A stretch of DNA of 64,000 nt from Chitinophagales bacterium (GTDB lineage: Bacteria > Bacillota > UBA5301 > DYFA01), in NCBI GenBank assembly GCA_050260095.1, contig JBLNBQ010000061.1:7261-71260 (forward strand), read 5' to 3'. Positions 10,015 through 60,011 of the stretch are shown one piece after another. Both the position numbers and the translations under genes were made by a program. The notes beneath the pieces were generated by a model. That model was not told the DNA's origin and searched no databases. It was given only the letters and a program-made list of their open reading frames with translations. Position 1 is the first letter of the stretch; every line of letters starts with the position of its first letter.

Positions 10015-10018
10015 AGGC

Positions 10019-11446: not shown

Positions 11447-11594
11447 CCGCCTCAGCCCGGAGCGCCGCCGGAAAGGAAAAACTTCTCTCCGTACAGAATA
11501 ACGGAGGGGTTACAGCGGCCACCACGCCACGCGGCTCGACGCTGGCCTGGTGGCTGTTCTCTTTTAGCTGGCGGGACGGCTTGCCCGCAAGACG

Positions 11595-32197: not shown

Positions 32198-32441
32198 CGC
32201 GCGCCCAGTGCAAGCCTTCGTCTACTAGCTGGTGAAAGTCCAGCCGGGGTAAGGGCCAAGCCGCCCCGTAGCTGACCACCGGTGGAAGCGAAGTTGTGGG
32301 AGGCCGGCGGGGCGACCCCGCCTCCTACCCGATCGGCGCGTGCGCCGGCAGGTATGCGCCGTCCAGCCAGCGAATATTTCCCTGCGCAGGGAATGGAAGG
32401 TGGCCGCGGTGCAGGGCCGAAAGGCGGGGCTCAGGGCACTG

Positions 32442-34208
32442 GTGCAGGCGAGGCGGCTCGGCCTTCGGCTGACAAAGCCGTTGGTTTGGGCCGTGCTCTT
32501 CGGCCTGCTGTTTTTGTCCGGCGCCGCTCCGGCGTCCGCCAATCCCTTCACCGAACTTCCGGCCGGCCACTGGAGCTTTGCGGCCCTTGCAGGGCTTGTC
32601 TCCTCCCGGCTGATCGCCCCGCAGGATTTGCTCGACCCTCAGGCGGGGAACCCCGTGATGCGCTTCGAACTGGCGCTGGTGGTGGCCAAGGCGGTCCGCG
32701 CCCTAAATCGCGGGCCGGCCCGTGAGGCGCCCGTCGCGCTCGATCCACTGCTCGACGGATACCGGGTCGGCAGCGGGGCCAAGGCGCGGCCGCTCACTCC
32801 GGCGGAGCGGGAGGCCGTGCGGGCTCTGGTGGCCGAGTTCCTGCCGGAGTTGGAGGTGCTCGGCCTTTCCTTCGCCGGGAGGGGCGAGCCGGCCCAGATG
32901 ACGCCCGCCTCCGAGCCGCTTCCCCTGGCGCCGGCGCCCGGGACGTTCGTGGACCTCGACGACCTTTCGCCCGGTCCGGCGCAGGTCGCCGCCGCGCCAG
33001 CTTCGGCGCCGTCCGCCGCGCCGGAGCCGGTCCCGGCGGAACCGGCTCCGGCCCCGGCTTCCTCACCGGCTCCCCCTTCGGCTGCCGTCCCTGCGGTCGC
33101 GGCCGAACCGTCCGAGCCCCCGTCCCTGCCGTCGCCACCGCCGCCGGAAGCGCCCATGGCGCCGGCCGCCCCGGGTGAGACTGGCCTCCCGGTCGAGCCG
33201 TTGCCCGAACCGGCGAGCGGGCTTCTGCCGGTGGTCGCCGCGGTTGCCCCGATGGTGAACACCCCGGCGGGTGCGGCCGTCCTGCCGGAGGACGCCCTGA
33301 CCCGGCAGGGGACCGGCGCCTTGCCCGGGCAGGTCGTCGTCGAGACGCAATCGACTTATGAGGCGATCCCGTCGGCGAAACCGGTCATCGCGGTGGCGGC
33401 CGCCGTGCAGACGGGCGAGACCCGCCTGCCCGTTCCCGGCGTGAAGGTCAGCGTGGCGCCGACCGTCACAGTCAACAGCGAAGTGGCGCCGGGCGGGGCG
33501 ATCCATCCCCAGGTGGGGTCGGTGGAAGTGCAGGCCAAGGTGCAGATCGCCGGCGTGGAGATGGGCGCCAGCGTCAAGAACGTCCAAGCGCTGGAACCCC
33601 AGGCGCAGGAGAGCCTCGACCTCAAAGTGGGCGGCGTGCCCGAGCAGCACGGGGTCGGGCTCAGCCTCCGTCTCGGTCAGGTGGCGTTCATGACCGACTT
33701 CTCCAAGGTCCGGAAAGACGAGGGCGGCACCGAGCGGCGGCGCTCCTTCGGGCTCGGTTATTCGCTCGGTTCGACGGCCGTGCTCCGCGCCGGGTACCAG
33801 TTGGTCGACCTCGACGCCATCGGCGGCACGAAACCCCGAACCGACGCCTCGCTGGGCGTCAACGTGAACGTGACCCGGGTGGCTTCGGTCTCCGCCGGGA
33901 TGACTCTGGAAGGGATGCGCTCCGACCTCCCTGGCGGCTCGGAGGGGCAACGGACGACGGCCGGCGTCGAGCTGCGCCTGCCGTGGAACACCTTCGCCAC
34001 GGCCGGGCTCGAGCTTTACCGTCCTACGACCGAGAGCGCCGGCACACCGTCGCAGAGCGCTGCCACCGTCGGACTCGGCTACAACTTCGCGCCCAACGGC
34101 ACGCTGCTGGTCGGCTACCGGCTGATCGACTTCGGGACACAGACGGGAGACCCGGCGGAGAAGTCGAGGGAGCAGAGCCTGACCGCCGGGGTGTCGCTGA
34201 GTTTCTGA
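32442..34208 (+). CDS. OmpM-like outer-membrane protein: N-terminal SLH domain, Pro/Ala-rich linker, C-terminal beta-barrel
   Basis: Signal peptide, SLH-like FTELPAGHWSFAALAGLV...RFELALVVAKAV, a long PAPA-rich linker, beta-barrel region ending ...GVSLSF. Start uncertain (GTG 32442 proposed). Confidence 0.55.
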   Translation: MQARRLGLRLTKPLVWAVLFGLLFLSGAAPASANPFTELPAGHWSFAALAGLVSSRLIAPQDLLDPQAGNPVMRFELALVVAKAVRALNRGPAREAPVALDPLLDGYRVGSGAKARPLTPAEREAVRALVAEFLPELEVLGLSFAGRGEPAQMTPASEPLPLAPAPGTFVDLDDLSPGPAQVAAAPASAPSAAPEPVPAEPAPAPASSPAPPSAAVPAVAAEPSEPPSLPSPPPPEAPMAPAAPGETGLPVEPLPEPASGLLPVVAAVAPMVNTPAGAAVLPEDALTRQGTGALPGQVVVETQSTYEAIPSAKPVIAVAAAVQTGETRLPVPGVKVSVAPTVTVNSEVAPGGAIHPQVGSVEVQAKVQIAGVEMGASVKNVQALEPQAQESLDLKVGGVPEQHGVGLSLRLGQVAFMTDFSKVRKDEGGTERRRSFGLGYSLGSTAVLRAGYQLVDLDAIGGTKPRTDASLGVNVNVTRVASVSAGMTLEGMRSDLPGGSEGQRTTAGVELRLPWNTFATAGLELYRPTTESAGTPSQSAATVGLGYNFAPNGTLLVGYRLIDFGTQTGDPAEKSREQSLTAGVSLSF

Positions 34209-34255
34209 GCGGGAGGTTCGCAAAGAACCGGTAACAATTCGGGAGGTGTACTGTG

Positions 34256-35197
34256 ATGTCCACAAAGCCGTTCCTGAGCTGGGACAGGCCCGCCGCTGCC
34301 TTGCTGGCGGCCGTGCTGGTGCTGGTCAACGCCCTGCCTGTTGGCGCCTGGGAGATCTCTTCGGGTCCCTTGGCGGGTTTGACCAGCCTCGAGAAGACGG
34401 TCTATGGGCAGGAGGGGACGGGCCCCATCCTCCAGCGCATCGACACGCTTGAGAAAGACGTGCTCGGCGGCAAGCAGGAAGGGCCGATCGTGGCCCGCCT
34501 CGAAAAGCTCAACTCCACCCTGCGCGGCCAGGGCGATTCGCTCCTCTTCCGCCTCAACGCCTTGGAGTGGTATCTCACCCGGACCCTCTCGGCCGGCGCC
34601 CTCAACCCCCGCCTGACCCAGGTGGAACAGTCGTTCTCCGGCCAGGCTGAGACGGGTCCGCTCGGTCCCCGCCTCGACCGCCTGGCGAAACTCGTCTGGC
34701 CCGACGGCAAGGCGGACGGGGGGCAGGTCCAGCTGGAGAAGGGGACGCTCGTCAAGATCAAGCTCGGGACCGAACTGAGTTCCCAGGCCACCAAGGTGGG
34801 GGACAGGGTCAAGTTCCAGGTGGCGCAGGACGTCAAGGTCGACGGGAAGCTGCTCATCCCCGCCGGGCTCGCCGGGGAAGGCCGGGTGACGGAAGTGGTC
34901 GCCGCCGCCAACCTCGGCCGCGACGGGCGGGTCCGCGTCAACTTTGGCACGATCCCCGCGCTCGACGGGCAGCTCTTCCCGATCGAGGTCGACGAGAAGG
35001 CGACCGAGATGAACAAGTCGCTCCAGTTCGCCGCCGGCGCCGCGATGGCCGGGGTCCTGCTTCTGGGGCCGGTCGGGTTGGTCGGCGGGTACTTCGTCAA
35101 GGGCAAGGACGTGGTGATCCCGATCGGCACCGAGTTCTACGTGTCGATCACGGCGTCGTCACTGGTGACCGGGCTCGCGGTCAGCACCACCAAATAG
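34256..35197 (+). CDS. Secreted hypothetical protein with three internal G-P-[IL]-x-x-R-[IL]-[DE]-x-L-[EA]-K repeats and a C-terminal beta-rich domain
   Basis: Signal peptide, repeats (TGPILQRIDTLEKDVLG / EGPIVARLEKLNSTLRG / TGPLGPRLDRLAKLVW), GGGAGGTG RBS. Confidence 0.4.
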   Translation: MSTKPFLSWDRPAAALLAAVLVLVNALPVGAWEISSGPLAGLTSLEKTVYGQEGTGPILQRIDTLEKDVLGGKQEGPIVARLEKLNSTLRGQGDSLLFRLNALEWYLTRTLSAGALNPRLTQVEQSFSGQAETGPLGPRLDRLAKLVWPDGKADGGQVQLEKGTLVKIKLGTELSSQATKVGDRVKFQVAQDVKVDGKLLIPAGLAGEGRVTEVVAAANLGRDGRVRVNFGTIPALDGQLFPIEVDEKATEMNKSLQFAAGAAMAGVLLLGPVGLVGGYFVKGKDVVIPIGTEFYVSITASSLVTGLAVSTTK

Positions 35198-35285: not shown

Positions 35286-35395
35286 GGGCCGGCATGGGAA
35301 TCTCCCCTGCGATTCCTGGCAGGAGAGGGAATAGCGGAAGCCGTACTTAGCAGAGAACACCTGCCTTGAGGGGCGAGGAACAGGGGAGGAGGAGC

Positions 35396-37024
35396 ATGAG
35401 CGTGCGCCGGGGGAGACTTGCCAACCGGTCCTTACTGCCAGGCCTGTTCGCCCTGGCGCTGTTCCTGCTGCCCTTAAGCGGCCCGGCCCGCGCCGCCGCG
35501 GCCGACTTCCAGCTCTCCGCCGACAGTATCGAGCACGACCTGGGCGCCGGGATCGTCACGGCGTCTGGCGGCGTCAGAGTCCAGCTCGCAGAGATGGAAG
35601 CGCGCGGAAACCTCCTGCGCGCAGACCTGAGCACCCATATACTCTCCATGGAGGGTCCAGTCCTCGTCGCCACCCCCTCCGGCGCGGTGCAGGGGGAGGA
35701 TCTGCGCTACGCCTGGGATCAGCGAACCGGCAGCCTACGAAACGCTCAGTTCGCCAGCGAGGGCGTGAGGTTCAGCGGGGGGGAGGCTGAGTTCGCTGCC
35801 AGTAGCTGGACCTTGCACGATGGCCTGCTCACGAAGTGCGTCTATCCCACGCCGGAGTACGCGCTGCAAGCCAGGGAGATTGCCGTCGACCCCGAGCGGC
35901 AGGTCGCCTACATCCGGGGCGGGCGCCTCGCCTTGTTCGGACACACCATCCTCCCGCTGCCGAATCTGCGCCTCTCGCTCCAGGATACGGAGATCGGCCG
36001 GCTCAGCCGGGGCAATCTCCCGGTGCCGGAGACGGGCTACGATTCCGAGCGCGGCTACTTCCTGGCGCAACGACAGCCGCTCTACCTCTCCGACACCACC
36101 TTCGTCCTGGCGCAGGCTGGGTACGGTTCCGAAGAGGGAGCGCGCCTCGGTCTCTCCGGCCTCTATACGCCTTCTTCTGCCGCCGCCTACCGCTGGGATC
36201 TCGTGTACCAGCAGCGCCCGCCCGTGGCCGACGGCCTGATCCGGGCCGAGGCTGCGCCGGCAATCCACGGGACGGCGGAGTACGAACTCAAAGACGCCGC
36301 CGGCCGGCTCAAGCTCGGCGTCGAGAAGAAAGACGACGAGGCCCGGCGCGACCTCACCTTCCTACCCCGGGTCGAGGTGTCCCCCCGCCCCGTGACCGTG
36401 GCCGGCGTCACGCTCGTGCCCACCTTAGAATGGGCCAATATCCAGGAGGAAGCCAGTGGACAGGCGGCGACGCGCACCCTGGCCGGCCTCTCCTGGTCGG
36501 CTGCGCCGCGGCTCAGCTTGCCGTTCGCCCTGACCTTCTCCGGCGCCGAGAAGCAGACTTGGTACGGCACGGGCGAGGCGCTGACCACCCGCGTCCTCTC
36601 GGGCGCCGTCACCCAGCCGCTCACCGAGGCGCTGCGACTCCAAACCGGCGTGAACGTCCGGCAGTATACCGGCCGGACTCCGTTCGTCTTCGACCAGCCA
36701 GACCGTTACTCCGAAGGCGAGGTGGGGCTAGCCTGGCAATCGGGGGGCAACACGCTTTATGGCGCCGCCGCCTACGACTTGGCCGGGTGGGGAACCGCCG
36801 ACGGCACCCGCGCCTTGCCGGGGCAACCCGCCGCACTCAAAGCCAGCGCCATCCTGGCCTCGGAAGGCTGGCGCGCCAGCGCTGAGGTCCGGTACGAACT
36901 GGGCGAGAAACCGCACTACTCGACTGCTGAACTTGAGCTCACTCGGGTGCTCCACTGCTTCGAGGTGACGCTGAGTGCGGAGCCAGTCGAGAAGAAGATC
37001 GCTTTTGAAGTGAGTTTCCGTTAG
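35396..37024 (+). CDS. Second, shorter LptD-like outer-membrane protein (OstA-like N-domain plus beta-barrel)
   Basis: Strong RBS AGGGGAGGAGGAG, signal peptide ...LLPLSGPARAAAA. TKCVYPTPEYALQAREIAVDPERQVAYIRGGRLALFGHTILPLPNL parallels the LptD motif TTCDLPDPHYHLEAREIVIH...LVTLPYLAIPL of the 1817 gene. Ends ...FEVSFR. Confidence 0.5.
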   Translation: MSVRRGRLANRSLLPGLFALALFLLPLSGPARAAAADFQLSADSIEHDLGAGIVTASGGVRVQLAEMEARGNLLRADLSTHILSMEGPVLVATPSGAVQGEDLRYAWDQRTGSLRNAQFASEGVRFSGGEAEFAASSWTLHDGLLTKCVYPTPEYALQAREIAVDPERQVAYIRGGRLALFGHTILPLPNLRLSLQDTEIGRLSRGNLPVPETGYDSERGYFLAQRQPLYLSDTTFVLAQAGYGSEEGARLGLSGLYTPSSAAAYRWDLVYQQRPPVADGLIRAEAAPAIHGTAEYELKDAAGRLKLGVEKKDDEARRDLTFLPRVEVSPRPVTVAGVTLVPTLEWANIQEEASGQAATRTLAGLSWSAAPRLSLPFALTFSGAEKQTWYGTGEALTTRVLSGAVTQPLTEALRLQTGVNVRQYTGRTPFVFDQPDRYSEGEVGLAWQSGGNTLYGAAAYDLAGWGTADGTRALPGQPAALKASAILASEGWRASAEVRYELGEKPHYSTAELELTRVLHCFEVTLSAEPVEKKIAFEVSFR

Positions 37025-37174: not shown

Positions 37175-38365
37175 ATGAACGGGGAACGGACGACCAGTCG
37201 CCAGCCAGCCCAGACCGGCTGGCTGGTTGCAGGGGCGTTGGTGCCTTTCGGAAATGCGTCGCTTGGCCTTCTCCTTTCCCTGGGCGGGTTGGCCGCGGCG
37301 CTTGCCAGAGGGCGACTGCGCTGGAAGATGGCAGACCCTGTGTATGGGCTTTTTCTGGCGCTTCTGGGATGCCTGGCGTTGAGTGCAGCGTTCTCTCCCG
37401 TGCGCGGTGTGGCTGCAGCCCTCTCAACTGGCTACGCCCTGCTGATGGGAGGATACGTCTTCGCAGCTCAGGGCAGCGATCCTGTCTGGATCCGGCGCAG
37501 GTTCGTTCCTACCCTGATGGTAGCCAGCTCAATCTCCTACGCCTTCGCCATCGGCCGGGCTCTGATCACTGACTCCCGGCGGGCAGGCACCCTTGGCAGT
37601 GGAGCCAATGGTTACGGAACGCTGATCATCCTGTGCAGCGGAGTGGCGCTCGGGTACTTGTTGAGCCGCGACGAGCGGCGGCGCTGGCCGGCGCTGGTCG
37701 CGTACGTCGCAGTTGCATCGGTTGCCTTGGCTTTCACACTCTCCCGCGGTGCTTGGCTGGGATTCTTCACGATGCTGGTTGTCCTTGCCCTGTGGAACCC
37801 CCAGTTTCGTCGCTGGCTCTGGCTTGGACTCCTGCCGTTGGCAGTTGCTTTCACGGCCATCCCACGGCTGGCGCCTCGGTTGCTCAGCATTTTCACGGCG
37901 GAAGCCTATTTGTCCCGGGTTTACATCTGGCGCTCGGCCTGGCGGATGATCCAGGACCATCCGCTCACCGGCGTGGGCGCTGGAGTCTTTATGCACGTCT
38001 ACGGGGCGTACGTTCAACCGGGCGCCAGCGAGCAGAGCGTCGCCTACGCTCACAACCTCTTCCTGCAGGTCTGGGCGGAATTTGGACTCATCGGATTCGT
38101 CATCTTCCTGGCCATCTTGGGCCGGGTGCTTTACATGTCCTTCCGTCTCGCCCGCACAGGCGACTCTCTCTACCAGGGTATCTTCGCCGCCTTTCTGGGG
38201 GTGCTCGTTCACCAGCAGGTTGACATCCCTATCTGGGGTATTGAAGTCGGCGGAGCGTTTTGGCTGCTGGTCGGTCTCACAATCAGCTTGTACGTGCACG
38301 AAATGGGGAAAGCGCAAAATGAAGCGGTGCGTGGTCACTGGTGGGGCGGAGTTCATCGGGTCTAG
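37175..38365 (+). CDS. O-antigen ligase/polymerase-family (Wzy_C/WaaL-like) membrane protein
   Basis: About 10 TM segments and the periplasmic loop with AHNLFLQVWAEFGLIG typical of the O-antigen ligase domain. Starts are possible at 37100, 37151 and 37175. Confidence 0.55.
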   Translation: MNGERTTSRQPAQTGWLVAGALVPFGNASLGLLLSLGGLAAALARGRLRWKMADPVYGLFLALLGCLALSAAFSPVRGVAAALSTGYALLMGGYVFAAQGSDPVWIRRRFVPTLMVASSISYAFAIGRALITDSRRAGTLGSGANGYGTLIILCSGVALGYLLSRDERRRWPALVAYVAVASVALAFTLSRGAWLGFFTMLVVLALWNPQFRRWLWLGLLPLAVAFTAIPRLAPRLLSIFTAEAYLSRVYIWRSAWRMIQDHPLTGVGAGVFMHVYGAYVQPGASEQSVAYAHNLFLQVWAEFGLIGFVIFLAILGRVLYMSFRLARTGDSLYQGIFAAFLGVLVHQQVDIPIWGIEVGGAFWLLVGLTISLYVHEMGKAQNEAVRGHWWGGVHRV

Positions 38366-39295
38366 CCTCACCCGCCGGCTGGTCGCCGAGGGTGTTCGGG
38401 TGAGGGTCGTAGACAACCTCTCCACGAGGTCCCTGGCGAACCTGGCCCGCTTGGAACAGGCGGTCGACTTCGTGGAGGGTGACGTCCGGGACAGTGAGCT
38501 TCTGCGGGAGGCTTGCCGCGGTGCGGAAGTTGTCTTCCACCAGGCGGGCATCGCCTCGGTGCAAGCGTCGGTGGAGGATCCGGCGGGCTGCCACGCCGTG
38601 AACGTGGGAGGCACGCTCAACGTCCTCCTGGCGGCCCGGGAGGCGAGGGCACGGCGGGTCGTCTTCGCCTCGTCTTCCTCGGTCTACGGCGACGCGTCCA
38701 CTCTCCCCTTGCGCGAAGAGACGCCGCCACGGCCCTTGTCGCCCTATGCGGCGACCAAACGCTGCGGCGAAGACTACTGCCGGGTCTTCTCAGAGTTATT
38801 CGGCCTGGACACGGTGGCCCTGCGCTACTTCAACGTCTTCGGTCCCCGTCACAACCCGGCCGCCGAGCACGCGGCGGTGATCCCAAAGTTCGTCTTGGCC
38901 GCCTTTCGGGGCGAGAACCGGTCATCCACGGCGACGGAGAACAGTCGCGGGACTTCGTCTTCGTCGAGGATGTAGTCCAGGCGAACCTGCTTGCCGCTCG
39001 GCGGGAGGAACCACTCGGCGGACAAGCCTTGAACGTGGGCACCGGGACTGTGACGAGTCTAAACGGTCTGATTCAAGCGCTGAGTTTGGCACTCGGCCGG
39101 CCTGTTCGCGCTCGTCACGCTGCCCCGCGCCAGGGCGATATCAGACACTCCATGGCCGACCCATCCCGCGCCCGCCAAGCGCTGGGATTTGCCGCGGGTC
39201 ATTCGTTCAGTGAGGGGCTGCGCCTGACCGTCGACTGGTACGCCCGGCAGGTGTTGGGCAGGGCGGACGCCGAGGTGGCGGCAGCCGGGGAGTGA
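38319..39295 (+). pseudogene. NAD-dependent sugar epimerase/dehydratase (UDP-glucose-4-epimerase/WbpP-like) with an apparent frameshift near 38913
   Basis: MKRCVVTGGAEFIGS Rossmann N-terminus and YAATK catalytic motif in frame a up to ...AAFRGE. The conserved PVIHGDGEQSRDFVFVEDVV... continues in frame b to 39295. Confidence 0.6.
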
Positions 39296-39311: not shown

Positions 39312-39340
39312 TTGACACCCCCGTTCCTGTGTGCTATCAT
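39312..39340 (+). promoter_or_regulatory. Sigma-70/SigA-type promoter: TTGACA - 17 nt - TATCAT
   Basis: Perfect -35, 17-nt spacer, -10 TATCAT, about 27 nt upstream of the SAM riboswitch. Confidence 0.5.
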
Positions 39341-39366: not shown

Positions 39367-39475
39367 GACTCATCATGAGCGGCGGAGGGAACGGCCCGAT
39401 GAAGCCCGGCAACCAGGCGGCGGCGCCCAGGTGCCAAGTCCGACAGAATGCCAATTCTGGAAGATGAGACGAGAC
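39367..39475 (+). promoter_or_regulatory. SAM-I (S-box) riboswitch aptamer in the metK leader
   Basis: P1 CTCATC...GATGAG. Conserved GAGGGA, GGCCCGATGAAGCCCGGCAACC, GGTGCCAAGTCC, AGATGAG boxes in the canonical order. Confidence 0.8.
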
Positions 39476-39480
39476 TTCAC

Positions 39481-39514
39481 GCCTCTTCCGAATTGGAGGG
39501 GGCGTAACTTTTTG
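39481..39514 (+). terminator. Riboswitch expression-platform terminator
   Basis: GCCTCTTCC-gaatt-GGAGGGGGC stem followed by GTAACTTTTTG. Confidence 0.5.
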
Positions 39515-39570
39515 TCCCCGTCCTGTTCACCGTGGACCAGGGTAACGCTACGCAGTGGGAGGCTTGCCGC

Positions 39571-40875
39571 ATGTGTCAGGAAGACCGTCTGAACCGCAAC
39601 TTCCTCTTCACCTCGGAGTCGGTGACCGAGGGACATCCCGATAAGATCTGCGATCAGATCTCCGACGCCATCCTCGACGCCATCTTCGAGAAGGACCCCA
39701 ACGCCCGAGTGGCGTGTGAGACCACCGTCACGACCGGGCTCGTGCTCGTGGCGGGCGAGATCTCCTGCGCGTGCTACGTGGATATCCCGGCGCTGGTCCG
39801 CCAGACCATCCGCGACATCGGCTACACCCGGGCCAAGTTCGGCTTCGACGGCGACACCTGCGCGGTGCTGACCGCCATCGACGAGCAGTCGCCCGACATC
39901 GCCCAGGGCGTCAACCAGGCGCTGGAGGTGCGCGGCACCGGCGACACCGATGCCTTCGACGCCATCGGCGCGGGCGACCAGGGCCTCATGTTCGGGTTCG
40001 CCTGCGACGAGACCCCCGAGTTGATGCCGCTGCCGATCTCCTTGGCTCACCAGTTGGCCCGGCGCCTCACCGAAGTCCGCAAGGAGCGGGAGGTCACCTA
40101 CCTGCGGCCCGATGGCAAGACCCAGGTCACGGTGGAATACAGGGAAGACCGTCCCGTTCGGGTCGATACGATCGTCATCTCGACCCAGCATCACCCCGAG
40201 GTCAGCCGGGAAACCATCGAGCAGGACCTGATCGAGAAGGTCATCAAGCCCGTGGTGCCCGCCAAGTACCTCGATGAGCAGACCAAGATCCTCATCAACC
40301 CGTCGGGCCGGTTCGTGGTGGGCGGCCCCCAGGGCGACACGGGGCTCACGGGCCGGAAGATCATCGTCGACACCTACGGCGGCTACGCCCGGCACGGCGG
40401 CGGCGCCTTCTCTGGCAAGGATCCCACGAAGGTGGACCGGTCGGCGGCCTACGCGTTGCGCTATGTTGCCAAGAACGTGGTGGCGGCTGGGCTGGCCGAC
40501 AAGTGCGAGGTCCAGGCGGCCTACGCCATCGGCGTTGCCCACCCGGTCTCCATCATGGTCGACACCTTCGGCACCGGGCGGATTCCCGACGATGCCATCG
40601 CCACGCTCGTCCGGCGCATCTTCGACCTGCGCCCGGCCGCCATCATCGACCACTTCCAGCTGCGCCGGCCGATCTACCGGCAACTGGCGGCCTACGGTCA
40701 CTTCGGCCGGACCGACCTCGACCTGCCGTGGGAGAAGACCGACAAGGTGGCCGAGCTGAAGGCGGGCGCCGAGGAGTTCGTCCGGCACGGTCACGTGCAC
40801 GTGCACGCGCACGAGCACACCCATACTCACACCCACGAGCACGGCGACGACCACGATCACCCGCACGAGCACTGA
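39571..40875 (+). CDS. metK: S-adenosylmethionine synthetase with a His-rich C-terminal tail
   Basis: [57 protein letters not shown]. The C-terminus [31 protein letters not shown] is about 40 aa longer than typical MetK. Confidence 0.9.
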
Positions 40876-40899
40876 GCCGGGCGGGGCGGAGGCGGGCCG

Positions 40900-41286
40900 G
40901 TGAGAGTCGGCGTCGACCTGGTGGATATCGCACGGTTGGGGCGCATCCTCGAGAGGCGCCCCTCCTTCGCGTCCCGGGTCTTCACCGAGGGGGAACTGAG
41001 CCTGGCGGAGGACATGGGGCTCGCGAAGCGGCGGGAGTTCCTGGCCGGCCGGTTCGCCGCCAAGGAGGCGGTCCTCAAGGGCCTCGGCACCGGCCTCGCC
41101 GCGGGGATCGCCTGGCGCGACATCGAAGTTCTCCGGGGGCCGGGCGGCGCCCCTCTGCCCCGGCTCTCGGGGCGGGCGGCGGAGGTCGCGGCGGCCCTCG
41201 GCGTGACGCAGACCCGGCTCTCCCTCTCGCACGACCGCGAGAAGGCGGTGGCCGTGGCGATCATGGAGGAGATTTCGCATCACTGA
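40900..41286 (+). CDS. acpS: Holo-ACP synthase (4'-phosphopantetheinyl transferase)
   Basis: VGVDLVDIARL...FAAKEAVLKGLGTG...SLSHDREKAVAVAI. Confidence 0.8.
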   Translation: MRVGVDLVDIARLGRILERRPSFASRVFTEGELSLAEDMGLAKRREFLAGRFAAKEAVLKGLGTGLAAGIAWRDIEVLRGPGGAPLPRLSGRAAEVAAALGVTQTRLSLSHDREKAVAVAIMEEISHH

Positions 41287-41327: not shown

Positions 41328-42125
41328 ATGAGCGGCACGGAACTCAAGGCGGATATCGGCGTCTTCGGTGGCTCGGGCTTCTACGATTTCCTGGGCGATG
41401 TGGAGGAGGTCTGGGTCGAGACGCCCTACGGGCCGCCGAGCGACAGGATCGCCATCGCCCAGGTGGGGGAGAAGCGGGTGGCGTTCCTGCCTCGCCACGG
41501 CAAGGACCACCGGTTCCCCCCGCACATGGTGAATTACCGGGCCAACCTCTGGGCGATGCACAGCCTGGGCGTGAAGCGCCTGATCGGGCCCTGCGCGGCC
41601 GGCAGCCTCCAGCCGCACGTCAAGCCGGGCGAGTTCGTGGTGACCGACCAGTTCGTCAACCGCACCTACGGGCGGAAAGACACCTTCTTCGACGGCCCTC
41701 TGACCTACCACGTGGCGGCCGCCGAACCGTACTGCCCCGTGCTGCGGAAGATCGCGATCGAGGCGGCCAAGGCGGAGGGGATCACCGTTCACGAGACCGG
41801 CACCGTGGTGGTCGTGCAGGGGCCCCGCTTCTCCACCAAGGCCGAGAGCCGGGAGTTCGCCAGCCACGGCTGGGAGGTCATCAACATGACCCAGTATCCC
41901 GAAGGCATCCTCGCCCGGGAGCTGGGCATCTGCTACGTCAACGTGGCGCTAATCACCGACTTCGACGCCGGCCTGGAGGGTCACCCGGAGGTCGAGGCGG
42001 TGACGCACGAGGCCGTGCTCAAGGTCTTCGCGGAGAACAACAGCAAGCTCAAGGGCCTGCTCTTCCGCATGATCGACGCCATCCCCACCGGCGAGCGGCG
42101 GGGGTGCCGCTGCGCTGAGCGGTAG
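41328..42125 (+). CDS. mtnP: S-methyl-5'-thioadenosine phosphorylase
   Basis: IGVFGGSGFYDF, FLPRHGKDHRFPPHMVNYRANLWAM, VINMTQYPEG. A GGGAAGGAG RBS. Confidence 0.8.
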   Translation: MSGTELKADIGVFGGSGFYDFLGDVEEVWVETPYGPPSDRIAIAQVGEKRVAFLPRHGKDHRFPPHMVNYRANLWAMHSLGVKRLIGPCAAGSLQPHVKPGEFVVTDQFVNRTYGRKDTFFDGPLTYHVAAAEPYCPVLRKIAIEAAKAEGITVHETGTVVVVQGPRFSTKAESREFASHGWEVINMTQYPEGILARELGICYVNVALITDFDAGLEGHPEVEAVTHEAVLKVFAENNSKLKGLLFRMIDAIPTGERRGCRCAER

Positions 42126-50052: not shown

Positions 50053-50092
50053 GAGGGCCCTGCTTGAGCAATCCGGCAGGGCCCTCTCTCCG
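50053..50092 (+). terminator. Strong stem-loop after the second flp gene (attenuator or terminator, weak U-tract)
   Basis: AGAGGGCCCTGC-12 nt-GCAGGGCCCTCT. The tail CTCTCC is not U-rich. Confidence 0.3.
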
Positions 50093-50115
50093 CCAGGCGC
50101 CAGGGGAAGGGAGGA

Positions 50116-50667
50116 ATGGGTGTGACTCCGGTGCGGATCGTCGTCTTGGCGGGGGTGCTCCTGTACGCAGTGGTCAGTGACGTGCGGACGCGGCGGATCC
50201 CGAACCTCCTTACCCTGCCGGGGATTCTGGCCGGACTAGCATTCTTCGCGGTGGAAGGGGGAGTGCGGGGCCTGCTCACCGGGCTGGCGGGAACCGCCGC
50301 CGGGGTTGCCCTCCTCTTCCTGCCGTTCGCCTACGGCGGGATGGGCGCGGGCGACGTCAAGTTGCTGGCGGTCGTCGGAGCCTTCGGCGGCCCCCGGTTC
50401 GCCTTCGTCTCCTTCCTGGGCGCCGCGCTTTTCGGCGGCGTGGTGAGCGGGTTCGTCCTCTGGCGGGAGGGGCGACTGGGCGCCACGCTCCGCGCCGTGC
50501 TCTGGGGCATCGCCGCCTTCGTCTCGCCGGCCATCCCCTTCATGCCGCTCCCCAAGCGCCCCGAGAACGCCCCCCACGCCGGGCCCTGGCCGGGCATCCC
50601 CTACGCGGTGGCGATCACCGTGGGCACGGTGGCCGGCTGGCTCTGGCAGGCGGGGTGGTTGCGGTGA
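50116..50667 (+). CDS. tadV: Prepilin peptidase TadV/CpaA (A24 family)
   Basis: About 6 TM, SDVRTRRIPN and GMGAGDVKL catalytic Asp motifs. Confidence 0.75.
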   Translation: MGVTPVRIVVLAGVLLYAVVSDVRTRRIPNLLTLPGILAGLAFFAVEGGVRGLLTGLAGTAAGVALLFLPFAYGGMGAGDVKLLAVVGAFGGPRFAFVSFLGAALFGGVVSGFVLWREGRLGATLRAVLWGIAAFVSPAIPFMPLPKRPENAPHAGPWPGIPYAVAITVGTVAGWLWQAGWLR

Positions 50668-51068
50668 AACGGGTGAGGCCCGGCCGGAGCCAGCGGGGGC
50701 AGGCCGTCGTCGAGCTGTCGCTCGTCATCACCGTGTTGCTCCTCTTGGTCCTGGGGCTCCTGGCTTTCGGCCAGATCATGCACGCCTACCTTTCTTTGAC
50801 TTATGCCTCCCGGGAAGGCGCCCGGGCGGCTGCCCTGCAGCATTCCGACGCCGACGTGCGCAGTGCCGTGGCCTCCGCCCTGCCGCCGACGATCCCTCAG
50901 GACGAGGTCACCACCACCATCAGCCCCACCGAAGGGGAGCGCCCCCGGGGGACGCCGGTCACGGTCGAACTGCGGTACCGGATTCCCATCGCCATCCCCC
51001 TCCTCGCCCAGGCCATCGGTCGCCAGGAGATCGTCCTGGTCGGCCGCACCACGATGCGGGCAGAGTAG
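50655..51068 (+). CDS. tadE: TadE-like pilus assembly protein
   Basis: RGQAVVELSLVITVLLLLVLGLLAFGQ TadE-like N-terminus. Confidence 0.65.
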   Translation: MVAVKRVRPGRSQRGQAVVELSLVITVLLLLVLGLLAFGQIMHAYLSLTYASREGARAAALQHSDADVRSAVASALPPTIPQDEVTTTISPTEGERPRGTPVTVELRYRIPIAIPLLAQAIGRQEIVLVGRTTMRAE

Positions 51069-51111
51069 AGGGCAGAGCGCGGGCAAGGTTGCGAAGGGAG
51101 AGGTGAGCAGA

Positions 51112-52077
51112 GTGGGTAAGGGTAGCGACTCGGTTCGGCGCAGCCCAGGCGGGCGCCGGCCGCTCGGAGATGAGCGGGGCCAGGTGCTCGTGCTGCTCGC
51201 CGTCTCCATGGTGGCCCTGCTCGGGTTCATGGCGCTCGTGGTGGACGTGGGGCTGCTCTACGGGCAGCGGGCCCGGGCGATGAACGCTTCCGAGGCGGCG
51301 ACGGCGGCCGGCATGCAGTTCCTGCCCGGCGATCCGGGTGGGGCGGTGGCCACCGCCGTGGACTATGCGACGCGCAACGGCTACCAGCCCGAGCAGGTCA
51401 CGGCCGTGGTCGGACCCGACAACAAGCGGCTGGAAGTGACGATCAAGGTGGACGCGCCGCTCTTCTTCGCCAGGGTGCTGGGGTTCAAGGGCGTGCCCAT
51501 CGGCGCCCGGACGGCGGCGCAGGCGGGGGCGGTTCGCTCCGTGAACGGCGCGGTGCCGCTCGGCGTCGAGAAGCAGGCCTTCGTTTACGGCGCCACCTAC
51601 TACCTCAAGAACTCCCCGGGCTATGGCGGCAGCTACAAGGGCAACTTCGGCGCCTTGGCGCTCGGCGGGCGGGGTGGCAGCACCTACGAGGAGAACCTGG
51701 CTCACGGCTACGACGGCGAACTCAAGGTCGGCGACGTGATCGAAACCGAGCCGGGCAACAAGTCGGGGCCGACTAACAGCGGGATCGCCGAGCGCATGAA
51801 CGCTGACCCCCTCGGCACCTACGAGAGCCACCGGGCCGACTCGCCCCGCATCCTCAAGGTGCCGGTCGTGGAGTGGGGCGCCAAGGGCGGGCGCTCCACC
51901 GCCACCGTCGTCGGGTTCGCCGCCTTCTGGCTCGAGGGCGTCGGCGGCTCCGGGCGGGAGTGCTACGTGAGCGGGCGGTTCATGAGACTGGTGACCTCAT
52001 CGGAAGAGGCCGAGCTGGGCACCGGCGACTACACCACTTACGATTACGGGCTCTACACCTACGATCTGGTCGAGTGA
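51112..52077 (+). CDS. TadG-like/Tad-domain pilus-associated protein
   Basis: ERGQVLVLLAVSMVALLGFMALVVDVGLLY (Tad N-terminal domain), Gly/Tyr-rich C-terminus. GTG 51112 within track ORF 50803. Confidence 0.55.
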   Translation: MGKGSDSVRRSPGGRRPLGDERGQVLVLLAVSMVALLGFMALVVDVGLLYGQRARAMNASEAATAAGMQFLPGDPGGAVATAVDYATRNGYQPEQVTAVVGPDNKRLEVTIKVDAPLFFARVLGFKGVPIGARTAAQAGAVRSVNGAVPLGVEKQAFVYGATYYLKNSPGYGGSYKGNFGALALGGRGGSTYEENLAHGYDGELKVGDVIETEPGNKSGPTNSGIAERMNADPLGTYESHRADSPRILKVPVVEWGAKGGRSTATVVGFAAFWLEGVGGSGRECYVSGRFMRLVTSSEEAELGTGDYTTYDYGLYTYDLVE

Positions 52078-52104
52078 CCGGGGGCTCGGCGGGAGGCGAA
52101 GGAC

Positions 52105-53724
52105 ATGCCAGGAAGGCGCATGACGGAATGGTCCAAGGCACTTCGCGGCCGCCCGGCGGCCGTTCTGCTTCTCCTGGCGCTCAGTATGGCAATGGCTGGA
52201 TGCGGCGGAGGTCCCACCGCCGGTTCGGGAACCACCGGCCGGCTGACCGGAAAGGTGACGGTCAGCACGCCCGACGGGCCGGCCCTGGCGGCGAGCGTCA
52301 AGGTCGACGGCACGGTGTACCAGGCGGTGGGCGGGACCTACCTCACCAACTACCTCGCCTACGGCACGCACACGATCACCGTCGGCGCCCCCGGCTATCA
52401 GACCCAGACGAGCGGCGTCAACCTGGCCCAGGCTTATTTGCGGCTCGACTTCGCCTTGAGCCAGGTGCCCGACACGACGGCGCCCACACTTGCCGGGACC
52501 ATGCCCGAGGCGGGGACCACCGGCGTGGACCGCAACACCAAGATCGTGATCACTTTCAGTGAACCCATGAACCAGACCACTGTGACCTCCGCCTTAAGCC
52601 TCTCGCCCGCCGTCCCGCTGCTTTTCAGCTGGGAGGACGACAGTCACCTGACGGTCACCCTCGGCCGGACGCTGGCGGCCGACACCGTCTACACCGTGAC
52701 CGTCGGCCCGGGCGCGCGGGACCGCGCCGGCAACGCGCTGGCGAACCCGGGAAGCTTCAGCTTCACCACCGGGACGGCGGTGGGCGGCGACGGGCGGATC
52801 GCCTTCACCAGCGACAAGACGCACCTGAACAAGGTCTACCTGATGCCGGATCAGCCGTTGGCGGCGGCCACCCCGCTGCTGCCCGACCAGAAAGAGGACC
52901 AGGAACCGGCCTGGTCGCCCGATGGCGTCCGGCTTGTCTTCACCTCCCGGCGCGGCAACCCCTTGGTCACGCAGTTGTTCGTGACCCGGCTCGACACGCC
53001 CAGCCCGGCGCAGGTCATCCCCGGGAGCGTCTATCAGGAGGCGGAGCCGAAGTGGTCGCCGCTGGGCGGGTGGATCGCCTTCAGTTCCATCCGCAACCAG
53101 GTCGAGGGCGACTGGGACATCTTCATCGTGCCCGTGGACGAGCGGGGGGTGGCCACCGGCAGCCCCCGGCAGGTGAACAAGGATCCGGGCGGAATCTATG
53201 GAACGTCCTGGGAGGCGGCGCCCGAGTGGTCGCCCGACGGCACGGTGCTCCTCTTCTCGTCGGACCGGACCGGGAAGCGGCTGATTTACGGCGTGGACGT
53301 GCAGGACCAGGGCGGGAAGGTCGGGGAAACCGCCGGGCTGACAGCCACCTGCCTCACCCCCGACGGCGAGCGGGAAGATGAGCCGGCCTGGTCGCCGGTG
53401 CCCTCGCCCGACGGCACTTGGCGGGTGGCGTACGTCTCCGAGCGCGGCGATACGCCCAACTGGGATCTCTGGCTCATGGACGTCGCCGTCTCCACCGACG
53501 CGGGAGGACACCGCGTGGTGACCGCCCGCGGCCACCGCCAGTTGACCAACTCGCCGGCCAACGAACACAAGCCGGTCTGGTCGCCCGATGGGAACTACAT
53601 CCTGTTCGTCTCGGAAGACGTGACCGGAACGCACCTGCATCGCATAGGCGCTGACGGCACCGGCGAAATCTCGTTCACCACCGGGTTCGCCAAAGAGGGC
53701 GGCCCCGCCTGGTCGTCGCGGTAG
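52105..53724 (+). CDS. Lipoprotein with carboxypeptidase-regulatory-like and Ig-like domains plus a TolB-like (PD40) beta-propeller
   Basis: Lipobox LSMAMAG-C, DTTAPTL...ITFSEPM Ig-like segment, at least 5 repeats of ...PAWSPDG.../EPKWSP/APEWSPDG/KPVWSPDG typical of TolB-like propellers. Confidence 0.55.
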   Translation: MPGRRMTEWSKALRGRPAAVLLLLALSMAMAGCGGGPTAGSGTTGRLTGKVTVSTPDGPALAASVKVDGTVYQAVGGTYLTNYLAYGTHTITVGAPGYQTQTSGVNLAQAYLRLDFALSQVPDTTAPTLAGTMPEAGTTGVDRNTKIVITFSEPMNQTTVTSALSLSPAVPLLFSWEDDSHLTVTLGRTLAADTVYTVTVGPGARDRAGNALANPGSFSFTTGTAVGGDGRIAFTSDKTHLNKVYLMPDQPLAAATPLLPDQKEDQEPAWSPDGVRLVFTSRRGNPLVTQLFVTRLDTPSPAQVIPGSVYQEAEPKWSPLGGWIAFSSIRNQVEGDWDIFIVPVDERGVATGSPRQVNKDPGGIYGTSWEAAPEWSPDGTVLLFSSDRTGKRLIYGVDVQDQGGKVGETAGLTATCLTPDGEREDEPAWSPVPSPDGTWRVAYVSERGDTPNWDLWLMDVAVSTDAGGHRVVTARGHRQLTNSPANEHKPVWSPDGNYILFVSEDVTGTHLHRIGADGTGEISFTTGFAKEGGPAWSSR

Positions 53725-53740
53725 AAACGGAGGGCTTTGG

Positions 53741-54583
53741 ATGCGCAACCGACGACTGCTCCTGCTCCTGGCGCTTGGCTCCGGGCTTCTGACGGCGGTG
53801 ATGGTCTTTTTCTACACCGCCTCCGTGAACAAACGGGCGAGCCAGCCGGCGTTCAAGATGGTGACGGTGGTGGTGGCGCGCACGCCGATCCCGGCCCGCA
53901 CCTCCATCCTCCCCGCCATGCTGGACGTGAAGAGACTGCCCGAACCGGCGGTCCTCCCGAACTACGTGCGCAGCGAAAGCGAGGTCGTCGGGGCGGTGAC
54001 CCGGGACGCGCTGGTGGCCGGGGAGCCGGTGCTCAAGGACCGGCTCTGGCCGAAAGGCACCCAGCCGGGGCTCACCTTCGCCATTCCCGCCGGCAAACGG
54101 GCCGTGACGGTGGCGGTCAACGAGGTGGTGGGGGTGGCCGGCTTCATCAAGCCGGGCGACCTGGTGGATGTCCTGGGGACCTTCGAGAAGGAACTCCTCG
54201 GCGCCGACACCACCGCGACGGTGCTCCAGGCCGTTCAGGTGCTCGCCATCGCCCAGAAGACGAAAGACGAGGGGAAGGACGAGGCGAAGGTCTCGACCAC
54301 CGTCACGCTCGCCGTCACCTTGGAAGAGGCGCAGAAGCTGACGCTGGCGGAGGAGCGGGGCAAGCTGCGGCTCGTCCTGCGCCCGGCGGGGGGAGTGGCC
54401 GACCTGGCCAAGCCGAAGCCGGCTACCGCCGGAGACTTGATCGGGGCGCCGCTCCGGAGCGCCCCGGCGGCCCAGCCCGCCCCCGCCCCGACCCCGCCCA
54501 AGCCGGCCGTCCGGGTTGACTTGTCCCGCCACACGGTCGAGGTCTTCCGGGGCTCCCGCCGCGACACGGTCGAGGTCCAGTAG
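53741..54583 (+). CDS. cpaB: Flp pilus assembly protein CpaB/RcpC
   Basis: N-terminal TM, SAF-like and RcpC regions (GDLVDVLGTF...LAVTLEEAQKLTLAEERGKLRLVLR). Confidence 0.75.
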   Translation: MRNRRLLLLLALGSGLLTAVMVFFYTASVNKRASQPAFKMVTVVVARTPIPARTSILPAMLDVKRLPEPAVLPNYVRSESEVVGAVTRDALVAGEPVLKDRLWPKGTQPGLTFAIPAGKRAVTVAVNEVVGVAGFIKPGDLVDVLGTFEKELLGADTTATVLQAVQVLAIAQKTKDEGKDEAKVSTTVTLAVTLEEAQKLTLAEERGKLRLVLRPAGGVADLAKPKPATAGDLIGAPLRSAPAAQPAPAPTPPKPAVRVDLSRHTVEVFRGSRRDTVEVQ

Positions 54584-54596
54584 GAGGTTGAAGAGC

Positions 54597-56306: not shown

Positions 56307-56326
56307 CGTGAGGCGGGGTGGAGAAG

Positions 56327-57565: not shown

Positions 57566-57612
57566 ATCCGGGGCGGCTTCGCAGGCAAGAGCTGGGGAGG
57601 GAGGGCTGACAC

Positions 57613-58998: not shown

Positions 58999-59018
58999 CC
59001 GGAAAGGAGGAAAGCCGC

Positions 59019-60008: not shown

Positions 60009-60011
60009 GCC

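What the first reader, a model, noticed from the sequence alone, without database searches (positions are those of the whole stretch)
40779..40875. MetK with a histidine-rich C-terminal tail
An otherwise canonical SAM synthetase ends in [28 protein letters not shown], an alternating His/x tract absent from standard MetK. It resembles natural metal-binding (Ni/Zn/Co) His-rich tails. It may link SAM synthesis to metal status or act as a metal chaperone or storage tail. The encoding DNA is a CAC/GAG-type low-complexity repeat that could also be prone to length variation.
Basis: seen in the sequence. Interest (0 to 1): 0.5.

Follow-up and report, generated by a model that had tools for sequence, protein, structure and literature searches.

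The report
MetK with natural histidine-rich tail
An ordinary SAM-making enzyme (MetK) in an uncultured, outer-membrane-bearing Bacillota lineage ends in a real, length-variable tail in which every second residue is histidine; it is most likely a metal-binding appendage of a familiar kind that has not been described on this enzyme.

Summary
The metK gene (39571-40875, +) encodes a complete S-adenosylmethionine synthetase of 404 residues plus a 30-residue tail, [30 protein letters not shown]. The tail has 14 His; the core has 2% His. The tail is not an artefact. The three closest relatives, from three independent assemblies with conserved gene order, also carry a His-rich tail starting at the same residue with the invariant motif R-H-G-H-[L/V]-H. 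Their tails are 12, 25 and 35 residues long. The nearest relative (~89% nt identity) differs from the window by a clean in-frame 54-nt indel inside the tract. No other MetK examined has such a tail: 117 other top homologues, 80 genome loci, 119 C-terminal fragments and the best 150 library representatives. AlphaFold predicts that the tail is disordered. The gene sits behind a SAM-I riboswitch with a promoter and a terminator. The 64-kb window holds no metal-homeostasis gene and no other His-rich tract. The best reading is a clade-specific (His-X)n extension that grows and shrinks by hexanucleotide slippage and binds Ni/Zn/Co/Cu, like the tails of SlyD, UreE and GroEL1. Metal binding and any link to SAM synthesis remain untested. 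It is a new variant of a known kind, of modest interest.

The parts
39312..39340 (+). sigma-70-like promoter (TTGACA, 17 nt, TG-TATCAT) for the metK leader
   Evidence: 11 of 12 matches. One site was found against 0.2 expected in shuffles. This is a consensus match only.
39367..39470 (+). SAM-I (S-box) riboswitch aptamer
   Evidence: RF00162, 82.8 bits (gathering score 44.4), E = 4.8e-18, full length. It is conserved upstream of metK in L001, L002 and L204.
39479..39515 (+). riboswitch expression platform: intrinsic terminator hairpin (12 bp) and T-run
   Evidence: stem 39479-39505, followed by AACTTTTTGT.
39571..40782 (+). metK core, residues 1-404: complete S-adenosylmethionine synthetase, including the clade-specific N-terminal MCQEDRL and Cys66
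   Evidence: PF00438, PF02772 and PF02773, E = 1e-45 to 2e-69. E = 8e-180 to PDB 7r3b; clade-specific residues. RBS GGGAGG at 39557-39562.
40783..40875 (+). His-rich (His-X)n tail, residues 405-434, plus the TGA stop; the invariant R-H-G-H-V-H start is at 40783-40800
   Evidence: AlphaFold: helix 393-406 is confident and residues 414-434 have pLDDT below 50.
40798..40851 (+). 54-nt (18-codon) in-frame segment present here and absent from the closest relative L083; exact placement is ambiguous within the CAC repeats
   Evidence: alignment of window and L083; codon listing.
40900..41286 (+). acpS (holo-ACP synthase), 24 nt downstream with no terminator between, so probably co-transcribed
   Evidence: PF01648, E = 4e-18; no terminator between the genes. 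The gene is also present in L083 and absent at this position in L001, L002 and L204.
41328..42125 (+). PNP_UDP_1-family phosphorylase (probably MTA phosphorylase), the conserved downstream partner of metK in this lineage
   Evidence: PF01048, E = 3.6e-44. Synteny.

Best explanation
The gene is the housekeeping, SAM-riboswitch-controlled MetK of an uncultured high-GC diderm Bacillota lineage. In this small clade the enzyme has gained an intrinsically disordered C-terminal extension that starts right after the last helix with a fixed H-G-H-[L/V]-H motif. The extension continues as a (His-X)n tract whose length changes by in-frame gain and loss of hexanucleotide (CAC-NNN) units. The steps that are shown are these: the tail is real and in frame, it is inherited across the clade, its length varies, it is predicted to be disordered, and it is specific to MetK within the DNA available. 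The steps that are inferred are these. The tail binds several soft divalent cations per chain (Ni2+, Zn2+, Co2+, Cu2+), which would mean many per tetramer. An abundant cytosolic enzyme would then double as a low-specificity metal buffer or reservoir, as the tails of SlyD, UreE and mycobacterial GroEL1 do. The tail is probably dispensable for catalysis.
For: The tail is present in four independent assemblies at the same position (residue 405), and all four share R-H-G-H-[L/V]-H. They are the window, L083 (JGI 3300038998), L001 (GCA_020725425.1) and L002 (JGI 3300045950), at 81-89% nt identity in the core. The loci are orthologous: all four have a PNP_UDP_1 phosphorylase gene downstream of metK; the window, L001 and L002 also share an ECF-riboflavin S-component gene and the SAM-I riboswitch. 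His is retained while the codons drift (CAC/CAT) and the X residues change freely (V, A, E, T, D, P, L, S, G). L001 and L083 keep 11 of 35 and 6 of 12 His without any detectable DNA tandem repeat. The window and L002 carry different hexamer arrays, CACGTG/CACGAG/CACACC against CACGAC. His content therefore persists beyond any single recent slippage event. All indels are in frame (54 nt against L083). His codons are not favoured by a 68% GC genome. Residues 414-434 are predicted disordered after a confident helix at 393-406. A MetK crystal structure, 7r3b, ends in a His run that is probably an engineered tag, and that run aligns with the start of the native tail. This suggests the C-terminus tolerates such an appendage. 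The HGHXaaH motif binds Ni/Zn in T. thermophilus SlyD. The K. aerogenes UreE tail HGHHHAHHDHHAHSH holds most of that protein's Ni yet is dispensable. SlyD tails vary between species (PMC7055735). The GroEL1 tail binds Cu(II) (PMC10170517).
Against: No metal binding was measured. No Ni, Zn, Co or Cu uptake, efflux, chaperone or regulator gene lies in the 64-kb window or in the 10-13 kb around the orthologues. Length and sequence are poorly conserved beyond the first six residues, and the closest relative manages with only 12 residues. That is what a weakly selected or neutral low-complexity tract would also look like. Slippage of CAC-NNN units can regenerate His periodicity without selection. 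Only four tail-bearing sequences are known, so no formal test of selection was possible. MetK's own cofactors, Mg2+ and K+, are not bound by His-rich peptides (established coordination chemistry).
Confidence: 0.5

Rival explanations
1. The tail is a neutral or nearly neutral low-complexity expansion. A hexanucleotide repeat at the 3' end of metK drifts in length, is tolerated because the C-terminus is solvent-exposed, and has no selected function.
For: Imperfect 6-nt repeats occur in the window and in L002. Tail length ranges from 12 to 35 residues among close relatives, and there is a 54-nt indel at ~89% nt identity. Little is conserved past HGHxH. No functional gene context was found. A MetK with what is probably an engineered C-terminal His tag folds and crystallises.
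Against: The tract is retained in every clade member across about 18-19% nucleotide divergence, where roughly 30% of core codons carry synonymous changes. His persists in L001 and L083 without a DNA repeat. The window and L002 show independent expansions with different hexamers. The first six residues are invariant. Neutral extensions in a 68% GC genome would be expected to be rich in Ala, Gly, Pro and Arg rather than His.
Confidence: 0.3
2. The tail is a regulatory tail. Binding of a transition metal, or protonation of His near pH 6-6.5, changes MetK activity or drives tetramers into higher-order assemblies. SAM synthesis would then be coupled to metal or pH status.
For: There would be four tails per tetramer if the usual MetK quaternary structure holds (established knowledge, not tested here). 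Poly-His motifs can mediate metal-dependent oligomerisation (PMC10382482, abstract seen). Ni binding to the SlyD tail reversibly inhibits its PPIase activity (PMC7055735). The same clade has other specific changes: Cys2 in an N-terminal MCQEDRL extension, and Cys66, which creates a C66-x-C68 pair three residues after the conserved GE motif.
Against: A regulatory element would be expected to keep a defined length and sequence, whereas this tail ranges from 12 to 35 residues. SAM supply is already controlled by the SAM-I riboswitch. There are no data on activity.
Confidence: 0.12
3. The tail is an artefact: an assembly or sequencing error, a frameshift, or loss of the true stop codon creates a tail that does not really exist.
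For: A neighbouring gene (epimerase, 38319-39295) does carry an apparent 1-nt frameshift, so the assembly or genome is not free of indels. Low-complexity DNA is prone to errors.
Against: The frame is continuous from the MetK core. Three other independent assemblies have a homologous tail at the same residue, all in frame and each followed by a stop. The stop codon differs between relatives (TGA, TAA, TAG) while the frame is kept.
Confidence: 0.02

Closest known systems
SlyD C-terminal metal-binding tail (E. coli, H. pylori; minimal HGHXaaH site in Thermus thermophilus SlyD)
   Same: Both are unstructured C-terminal appendages, rich in His and acidic residues, on an abundant housekeeping cytosolic protein. 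Both vary between species. The invariant start of the MetK tail, H-G-H-[L/V]-H, fits the HGHXaaH motif that binds one Ni(II) or Zn(II) in T. thermophilus SlyD (PMC7055735).
   Different: The carrier here is a biosynthetic enzyme, not a chaperone. The MetK tail has no Cys. No HypB or hydrogenase context is seen. Metal binding is untested.
Klebsiella aerogenes UreE His-rich C-terminus (HGHHHAHHDHHAHSH)
   Same: Both are terminal tails that begin with HGH and hold a high share of His. In UreE the tail holds most of the bound Ni but is dispensable for the protein's core function, and it is absent from orthologues in other species (PMC7055735). That is the behaviour proposed here.
   Different: UreE is a dedicated Ni chaperone encoded in a urease operon. 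MetK has no known role with transition metals. The MetK tract is strictly alternating (HX)n rather than made of His runs.
Mycobacterial GroEL1 (Cpn60.1) His-rich C-terminal tail (DHDHHHGHAH)
   Same: Both are clade-specific His-rich C-termini on an otherwise universal housekeeping protein, and a role in metal homeostasis has been proposed for GroEL1. Both have His alternating with Asp. The GroEL1 peptide binds Cu(II) (PMC10170517).
   Different: The GroEL1 tail replaces the ancestral Gly/Met-rich tail of one of two paralogues. The MetK tail is an addition. GroEL1's tail is also shorter, at about 10 residues.
Lineage-specific expansion of His-rich loops in metal transporters (RcnA of cable bacteria; (HX)n loops of ZIP and CDF transporters)
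   Same: In both cases a His-rich low-complexity tract expands in one lineage. The RcnA loop has 33-53 His in cable bacteria against 17 in E. coli (PMC11247825). Alternating (HX)n is the classic Zn-binding loop pattern of ZIP and CDF proteins (my own knowledge, not tested here).
   Different: Those tracts are internal cytoplasmic loops of membrane transporters with a demonstrated link to metals. This one is a soluble enzyme's terminus.
Recombinant C-terminally His-tagged MetK (for example PDB 7r3b)
   Same: Both are MetK followed by a C-terminal His run. The run in 7r3b aligns with the first residues of the native tail.
   Different: The His run in 7r3b is probably engineered (inferred from the sequence), and its chain stops about 26 residues before the end of the native tail. 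The tail here is natural, 30 residues long, alternating, and inherited within a clade.

Membership tests
S-adenosylmethionine synthetase (MetK / methionine adenosyltransferase, EC 2.5.1.6) | Three-domain architecture (S-AdoMet_synt N, M and C domains), full length | tested here: met
   PF00438 (residues 10-108), PF02772 (132-248) and PF02773 (250-389). All cover the full profile and score far above their cut-offs.
S-adenosylmethionine synthetase (MetK / methionine adenosyltransferase, EC 2.5.1.6) | Signature motifs GHPDK, GAGDQG, D-x-G-x-TGRKII and GGGAFSGKD | tested here: met
   Read directly in the translation: [37 protein letters not shown] and [17 protein letters not shown]. These residues are invariant in the 48-sequence alignment.
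S-adenosylmethionine synthetase (MetK / methionine adenosyltransferase, EC 2.5.1.6) | Close similarity to enzymes with solved structures | tested here: met
   E = 8e-180 to 7r3b and E = 2e-154 to E. coli MetK (1fug), aligned from residue ~9-12 of the query through residues 397-408.
S-adenosylmethionine synthetase (MetK / methionine adenosyltransferase, EC 2.5.1.6) | SAM-responsive regulation typical of Bacillota metK (S-box leader) | tested here: met
   RF00162 at 82.8 bits, with a promoter-like site and a terminator, conserved in the relatives.
S-adenosylmethionine synthetase (MetK / methionine adenosyltransferase, EC 2.5.1.6) | Catalytic activity (ATP + Met -> SAM) | not testable with these tools
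   This needs an enzyme assay.
Natural His-rich metal-binding tails (SlyD / UreE / GroEL1 type; a functional class, not a homologous family) | Terminal segment with roughly 30% His or more, together with acidic residues | tested here: met
   14 of 30 His and 6 Asp/Glu. The relatives have 6 of 12, 11 of 35 and 8 of 25 His.
Natural His-rich metal-binding tails (SlyD / UreE / GroEL1 type; a functional class, not a homologous family) | Intrinsically disordered appendage outside the folded domain | tested here: met
   pLDDT is below 50 for residues 414-434, after a confident helix at 393-406. This is a prediction only.
Natural His-rich metal-binding tails (SlyD / UreE / GroEL1 type; a functional class, not a homologous family) | Variable in length, and present or absent among orthologues | tested here: met
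   tails are 12-35 residues long within the clade and absent from all other MetKs examined.
Natural His-rich metal-binding tails (SlyD / UreE / GroEL1 type; a functional class, not a homologous family) | Measured binding of several Ni/Zn/Co/Cu ions | not testable with these tools
   This needs ICP-MS, ITC or IMAC on the protein with and without the tail.
Natural His-rich metal-binding tails (SlyD / UreE / GroEL1 type; a functional class, not a homologous family) | Genomic or functional association with a metalloenzyme maturation or metal homeostasis system | tested here: not met
   Searches (Pfam scan of about 50 window genes; related loci): the neighbours are LPS and polysaccharide synthesis, ATP synthase, a Tad pilus, acpS and an MTA phosphorylase-like gene. 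Only 64 kb of the genome was visible.

The most novel reading that the evidence does not exclude
In this diderm Bacillota lineage MetK would have been recruited as a dual-function protein. The (His-X)n tail, perhaps acting with the clade-specific Cys2 and the Cys66-x-Cys68 pair, would sense or store a transition metal (Ni, Co or Zn). Through this it would either gate SAM synthesis or oligomerisation according to metal status, or supply metal to metalloenzymes. That would be a direct physical link between one-carbon/methylation metabolism and metal homeostasis.
Probability: 0.1. Interest if true: 0.55.

Novelty: new variant of a known kind. Interest (0 to 1): 0.3.

Why it matters
If the tail binds metal in vivo, it adds a core biosynthetic enzyme to the short list of housekeeping proteins (SlyD, GroEL1, HspA) that carry His-rich metal-buffering tails. 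It would also give a clean natural series for asking how much His-rich tail is selected for, because close relatives carry 12, 25, 30 and 35 residues, partly through independent hexamer expansions. In practice the protein should purify on IMAC resin without a tag. Annotators should not trim the tail as an artefact. The finding does not bear on any long-standing open question.

Tried and rejected
1. A metagenome scan with a clade-specific degenerate pattern (G-A-[DE]-E-[FY]-[LV]-R-H-G-H-[LV]-H) found 0 hits. The same pattern matches L001, L002 and L083, so the scanned collection simply lacks those samples.

2. A second metagenome scan used W-E-x-x-D, a 21-51 nt gap and (CAY NNN)x5. Most were (CA)n-type simple repeats. 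The scan was uninformative.

3. A homologue search with only the C-terminal 69-74 residues returned almost only short fragments and did not even list P0001 or P0002. It did yield one useful new fragment, P0121.

It served only as an 80-genome negative control for tails.

5. A phmmer search of the C-terminal 101 residues against 1.84 billion representatives found no (HX)n tail among the best 150. Close MetKs collapse into a few clusters at 50% identity, so this is weak negative evidence.

6. A PDB search with the tail alone found nothing, as expected for low-complexity sequence.

7. Literature searches found no paper on a natural His-rich MetK tail.

8. The idea that His-rich tails are a general habit of this genome was rejected for the DNA available. 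No other in-frame His-rich tract occurs in the window. In L001, L002, L083 and L204, which hold about 30 kb, the scan turned up only one other open frame, an unannotated 103-codon minus-strand frame in L001 with 6 His in 15.

9. The antisense ORF 39373-41283 was rejected as a GC-rich shadow frame.

10. The organism could not be named. The best AtpD hit is an unnamed 'Bacillota bacterium' MAG at 93% identity, and the next named taxa are at about 77%.

Full report
**1. What is in the sequence**

The + strand ORF that ends at 40875 starts most plausibly at ATG 39571. A GGGAGG ribosome-binding site lies 8 nt upstream. The 434-residue product has the three MetK Pfam domains over residues 10-389, with E-values of 1e-45 to 2e-69. 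It matches solved S-adenosylmethionine synthetases at E = 8e-180 (7r3b) and 2e-154 (E. coli 1fug). Those alignments end between residues 397 and 408.

The signature motifs [22 protein letters not shown] and GGGAFSGKD are all present and invariant in a 48-sequence alignment. The gene is therefore a bona fide housekeeping metK.

After residue 404 comes [30 protein letters not shown] (40783-40875).

- It has 14 His and 6 Asp/Glu in 30 residues.
- The core has 8 His in 404 residues, giving a binomial P of about 1.5e-16.
- It is the only marked His-rich tract in any frame of the window.
- The DNA is an imperfect hexanucleotide repeat of CACGTG, CACGAG and CACACC units.
- GC3 profiling supports only the + frame as coding. 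The 636-codon antisense ORF is a shadow frame of GC-rich DNA.

**2. Is the tail real?**

The exact protein is not in the 5.8-billion-protein collection. The two best hits are P0001 (87% identity, 439 aa, from NCBI MAG GCA_020725425.1) and P0002 (84%, 429 aa, from JGI 3300045950). Both are longer than normal MetKs, and both end in His-rich tails:

- P0001: RHGHLHDHPHAEGAHHEHVHLHSHDGAREAAAYKE
- P0002: RHGHLHDHDHDHGHAGAPEAAAHQE

A search with the C-terminal region found a fourth sequence, P0121 (JGI 3300038998). It ends in RHGHVHEHPHEH.

The four loci are orthologous.

- In the window, L001 and L002, metK follows a SAM-I riboswitch and is followed by a PNP_UDP_1 phosphorylase gene and an ECF-riboflavin S-component gene.
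- L083 is a short contig that begins inside metK, so only its phosphorylase gene can be seen.
- The window and L083 both have acpS inserted after metK.

In every case the tail starts at the same residue (405) with R-H-G-H-[L/V]-H, is in frame with the core, and ends in a stop codon. The stop is TGA, TAA or TAG in different relatives. An assembly artefact or frameshift is therefore excluded for practical purposes.

**3. How the tail varies**

L083 is about 89% identical to the window in the flanking coding DNA; the differing codons are 28 synonymous and 5 non-synonymous out of 106. It differs in the tail by one clean 54-nt (18-codon) indel at window 40798-40851, bounded by CAC codons. The surviving His codons show synonymous CAC/CAT changes.

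L001 and L002 are 81-82% identical in the core, and about 30% of their codons carry synonymous differences. Beyond the first six to ten residues their tails cannot be aligned with the window's tail. Even so, they keep 11 of 35 and 8 of 25 His.

At the DNA level the four tails differ:

- L002 has a clear CACGAC hexamer array (6.8 copies, 85% matches).
- The window has different and weaker hexamer arrays.
- L001 and L083 have no detectable tandem repeat at all.

The tract has therefore expanded independently, with different units, in at least two branches. His richness also persists where the DNA repeat has decayed.

A more distant syntenic relative, P0033 (74% identity), ends in ...ERGAHQHAAAVREH. 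That is only 3 His, and its ending resembles the EAAAxxE ends of L001 and L002. This looks like a weakly His-containing ancestral extension.

**4. How widespread is it?**

No (His-X)n tail was found in any of the following:

- the other 117 of the best 120 full-length homologues, which are Bacillota MetKs at 79% identity or less;
- the MetK genes at 80 genome loci that scan returned, mostly Bacillota;
- 119 C-terminal fragments;
- the best 150 of 4,740 representative proteins that match the C-terminal 101 residues in a 1.84-billion-protein library.

Two metagenome DNA scans were uninformative. Full-text searches found no paper describing a natural His-rich MetK. The feature is confined, as far as could be seen, to one small uncultured clade.

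**5. Structure and surroundings**

AlphaFold2 was run with 48 sequences and gave a mean pLDDT of 70. It models a confident C-terminal helix at residues 393-406, so the tail begins exactly where the helix ends. Residues 414-434 have pLDDT below 50, which indicates disorder.

PDB chain 7r3b carries what looks like an engineered C-terminal His tag, and that tag aligns with the start of the native tail. This suggests MetK tolerates such an appendage.

Upstream of the gene lie, in order:

- a promoter-like site at 39312-39340 (11 of 12 matches);
- the SAM-I aptamer at 39367-39470 (82.8 bits);
- a 12-bp terminator hairpin with a T-run at 39479-39515.

No terminator separates metK from acpS (40900-41286) or from the phosphorylase gene (41328-42125). 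The three genes are probably one SAM-regulated transcript.

The rest of the window was scanned with Pfam, about 50 genes in all. It encodes lipid A and LPS synthesis and export, the F-type ATP synthase, rhamnose and polysaccharide genes, a DegS/DegU-like two-component system, and a Tad pilus with a secretin. There is no gene for Ni, Zn, Co or Cu handling.

The organism is an uncultured Bacillota with 68% GC and an outer-membrane gene set. Its best AtpD hit is an unnamed 'Bacillota bacterium' MAG at 93% identity. The next named taxa are at about 77%.

**6. Most likely mechanism**

The following points are shown:

- The extension is clade-specific, in frame and predicted to be disordered.
- It has a fixed HGHxH start.
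- It changes length in multiples of six nucleotides.

The following points are inferred:

- The tail chelates soft divalent cations.

The inference rests on chemistry and on analogy:

- HGHXaaH is the crystallographically defined Ni/Zn site of T. thermophilus SlyD.
- The K. aerogenes UreE tail HGHHHAHHDHHAHSH holds most of that protein's Ni, yet can be deleted without loss of urease activation.
- The E. coli SlyD tail binds up to seven Ni ions and varies between species (PMC7055735).
- The GroEL1 tail DHDHHHGHAH binds Cu(II) (PMC10170517).
- His-rich loops expand in particular lineages, as in the RcnA of cable bacteria (PMC11247825).

By analogy, an abundant tetrameric enzyme with four such tails would act as a low-specificity metal buffer or reservoir, and the tail would be dispensable for catalysis. 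I put about 0.5 on this being the selected function. In vitro metal binding as such is much more likely.

His ligands do not suit MetK's own cofactors, Mg2+ and K+. A role in supplying the active site is therefore unlikely.

**7. Rivals**

- *A neutral slippage-driven tract (about 0.3).* This fits the loose conservation and the 12-residue version in the closest relative. It fits less well with retention in all clade members, with His persisting without a DNA repeat, with the independent expansions, and with His enrichment against the genome's GC bias.
- *A regulatory tail that senses metal or pH (about 0.12).* This is the interesting reading, but no evidence speaks for it. The only hints are the clade-specific Cys2 and Cys66 and precedents for metal-dependent poly-His oligomerisation (PMC10382482) and for Ni inhibition of SlyD.
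- *An artefact (about 0.02).* This is excluded by the four independent assemblies.

**8. Verdict**

The resemblance to metal-binding tails and the length variation hold up. The proposed link to metal status or a chaperone role is untested and has no support from gene context.

The gene is a full member of the MetK family. The tail belongs to the known functional class of natural His-rich tails by composition, predicted disorder and variability. The defining biochemical property was not testable, and the metal-system context was not found.

Novelty: a new variant of a known kind, namely a His-rich tail on MetK, which was not described in the literature searched. Interest is modest at 0.3. It is a neat natural series for studying how His-rich tails evolve and a natural IMAC handle, but it is neither a surprise to specialists nor a route into an open question.

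Noticed in passing
window 38319-39295 (frameshift near 38917-38925): An NAD-dependent sugar epimerase gene is split over two reading frames. Frame A matches PF01370 positions 2-197 of 240 and then runs into a stop. The conserved continuation, PVIHGDGEQSRDFVFVEDV..., lies in the ORF 38513-39295. This looks like a 1-nt deletion at ...GAGAACCGGTC..., so the gene is either a pseudogene or carries an assembly indel.
   Followed up: partly
window 468-23688: A complete-looking lipid A / LPS cluster is present. It comprises LptF/G (468-1790 and 22558-23688), LptA-like (4938-5624), LpxC (8641-10011), FabZ (10004-10486), LpxA (10640-11443), LpxI (11568-12419), LpxB (12365-13552), MsbA-like (14799-16553) and LptB-like (21838-22554). 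Combined with 68% GC and Bacillota-like MetK and AtpD, it marks the organism as a diderm (outer-membrane-bearing) Bacillota whose closest relatives are unnamed MAGs.
   Followed up: partly
window 32340-34205 and 50068-60941: A Porin_4-like protein is encoded directly after the ATP synthase operon. A Tad/Flp-type pilus cluster is also present, with an A24 prepilin peptidase, RcpC/CpaB, a secretin (54516-56303), a TadZ-like ATPase fused to a receiver domain (56312-57562), a T2SSE ATPase and two T2SSF proteins. The secretin is further evidence for an outer membrane.
   Followed up: no
window 39574-39576 (Cys2) and 39766-39768 (Cys66) in metK: The tail-bearing clade also shares an N-terminal MCQEDRL extension with Cys2, which is also present in the more distant P0033. 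It shares a Thr-to-Cys change at residue 66 as well; 116 of 118 other homologues have Thr there. This creates C66-A-C68 three residues after the conserved GE motif. Whether these cysteines relate to the His tail (a metal or redox site) is unknown.
   Followed up: partly
window 40900-41286; L083 532-804: acpS (holo-ACP synthase) is inserted between metK and the MTA-phosphorylase-like gene, but only in the window and its closest relative L083. It is absent at that position from L001, L002 and L204. With no terminator in between, acpS probably comes under SAM-riboswitch control in this sub-lineage.
   Followed up: partly
window 5719-8274, 35366-37021, 2663-4189, 17197-18918, 25367-26506, 34235-35194, 50803-52074: Several large ORFs have coding-like GC3 (17197-18918 did not pass that filter) and no Pfam match at E <= 1e-5, including proteins of 852 and 552 residues. 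Some sit inside or beside the LPS and envelope clusters, so they may be lineage-specific envelope proteins.
   Followed up: no
L204 227-1498 (P0033): A more distant syntenic MetK (74% identity, from Logan SRR25508614) ends in ...ERGAHQHAAAVREH. This tail is short and only weakly His-containing, and its last residues resemble the EAAAxxE ends of L001 and L002. It may be the ancestral state from which the (His-X)n tracts expanded.
   Followed up: partly
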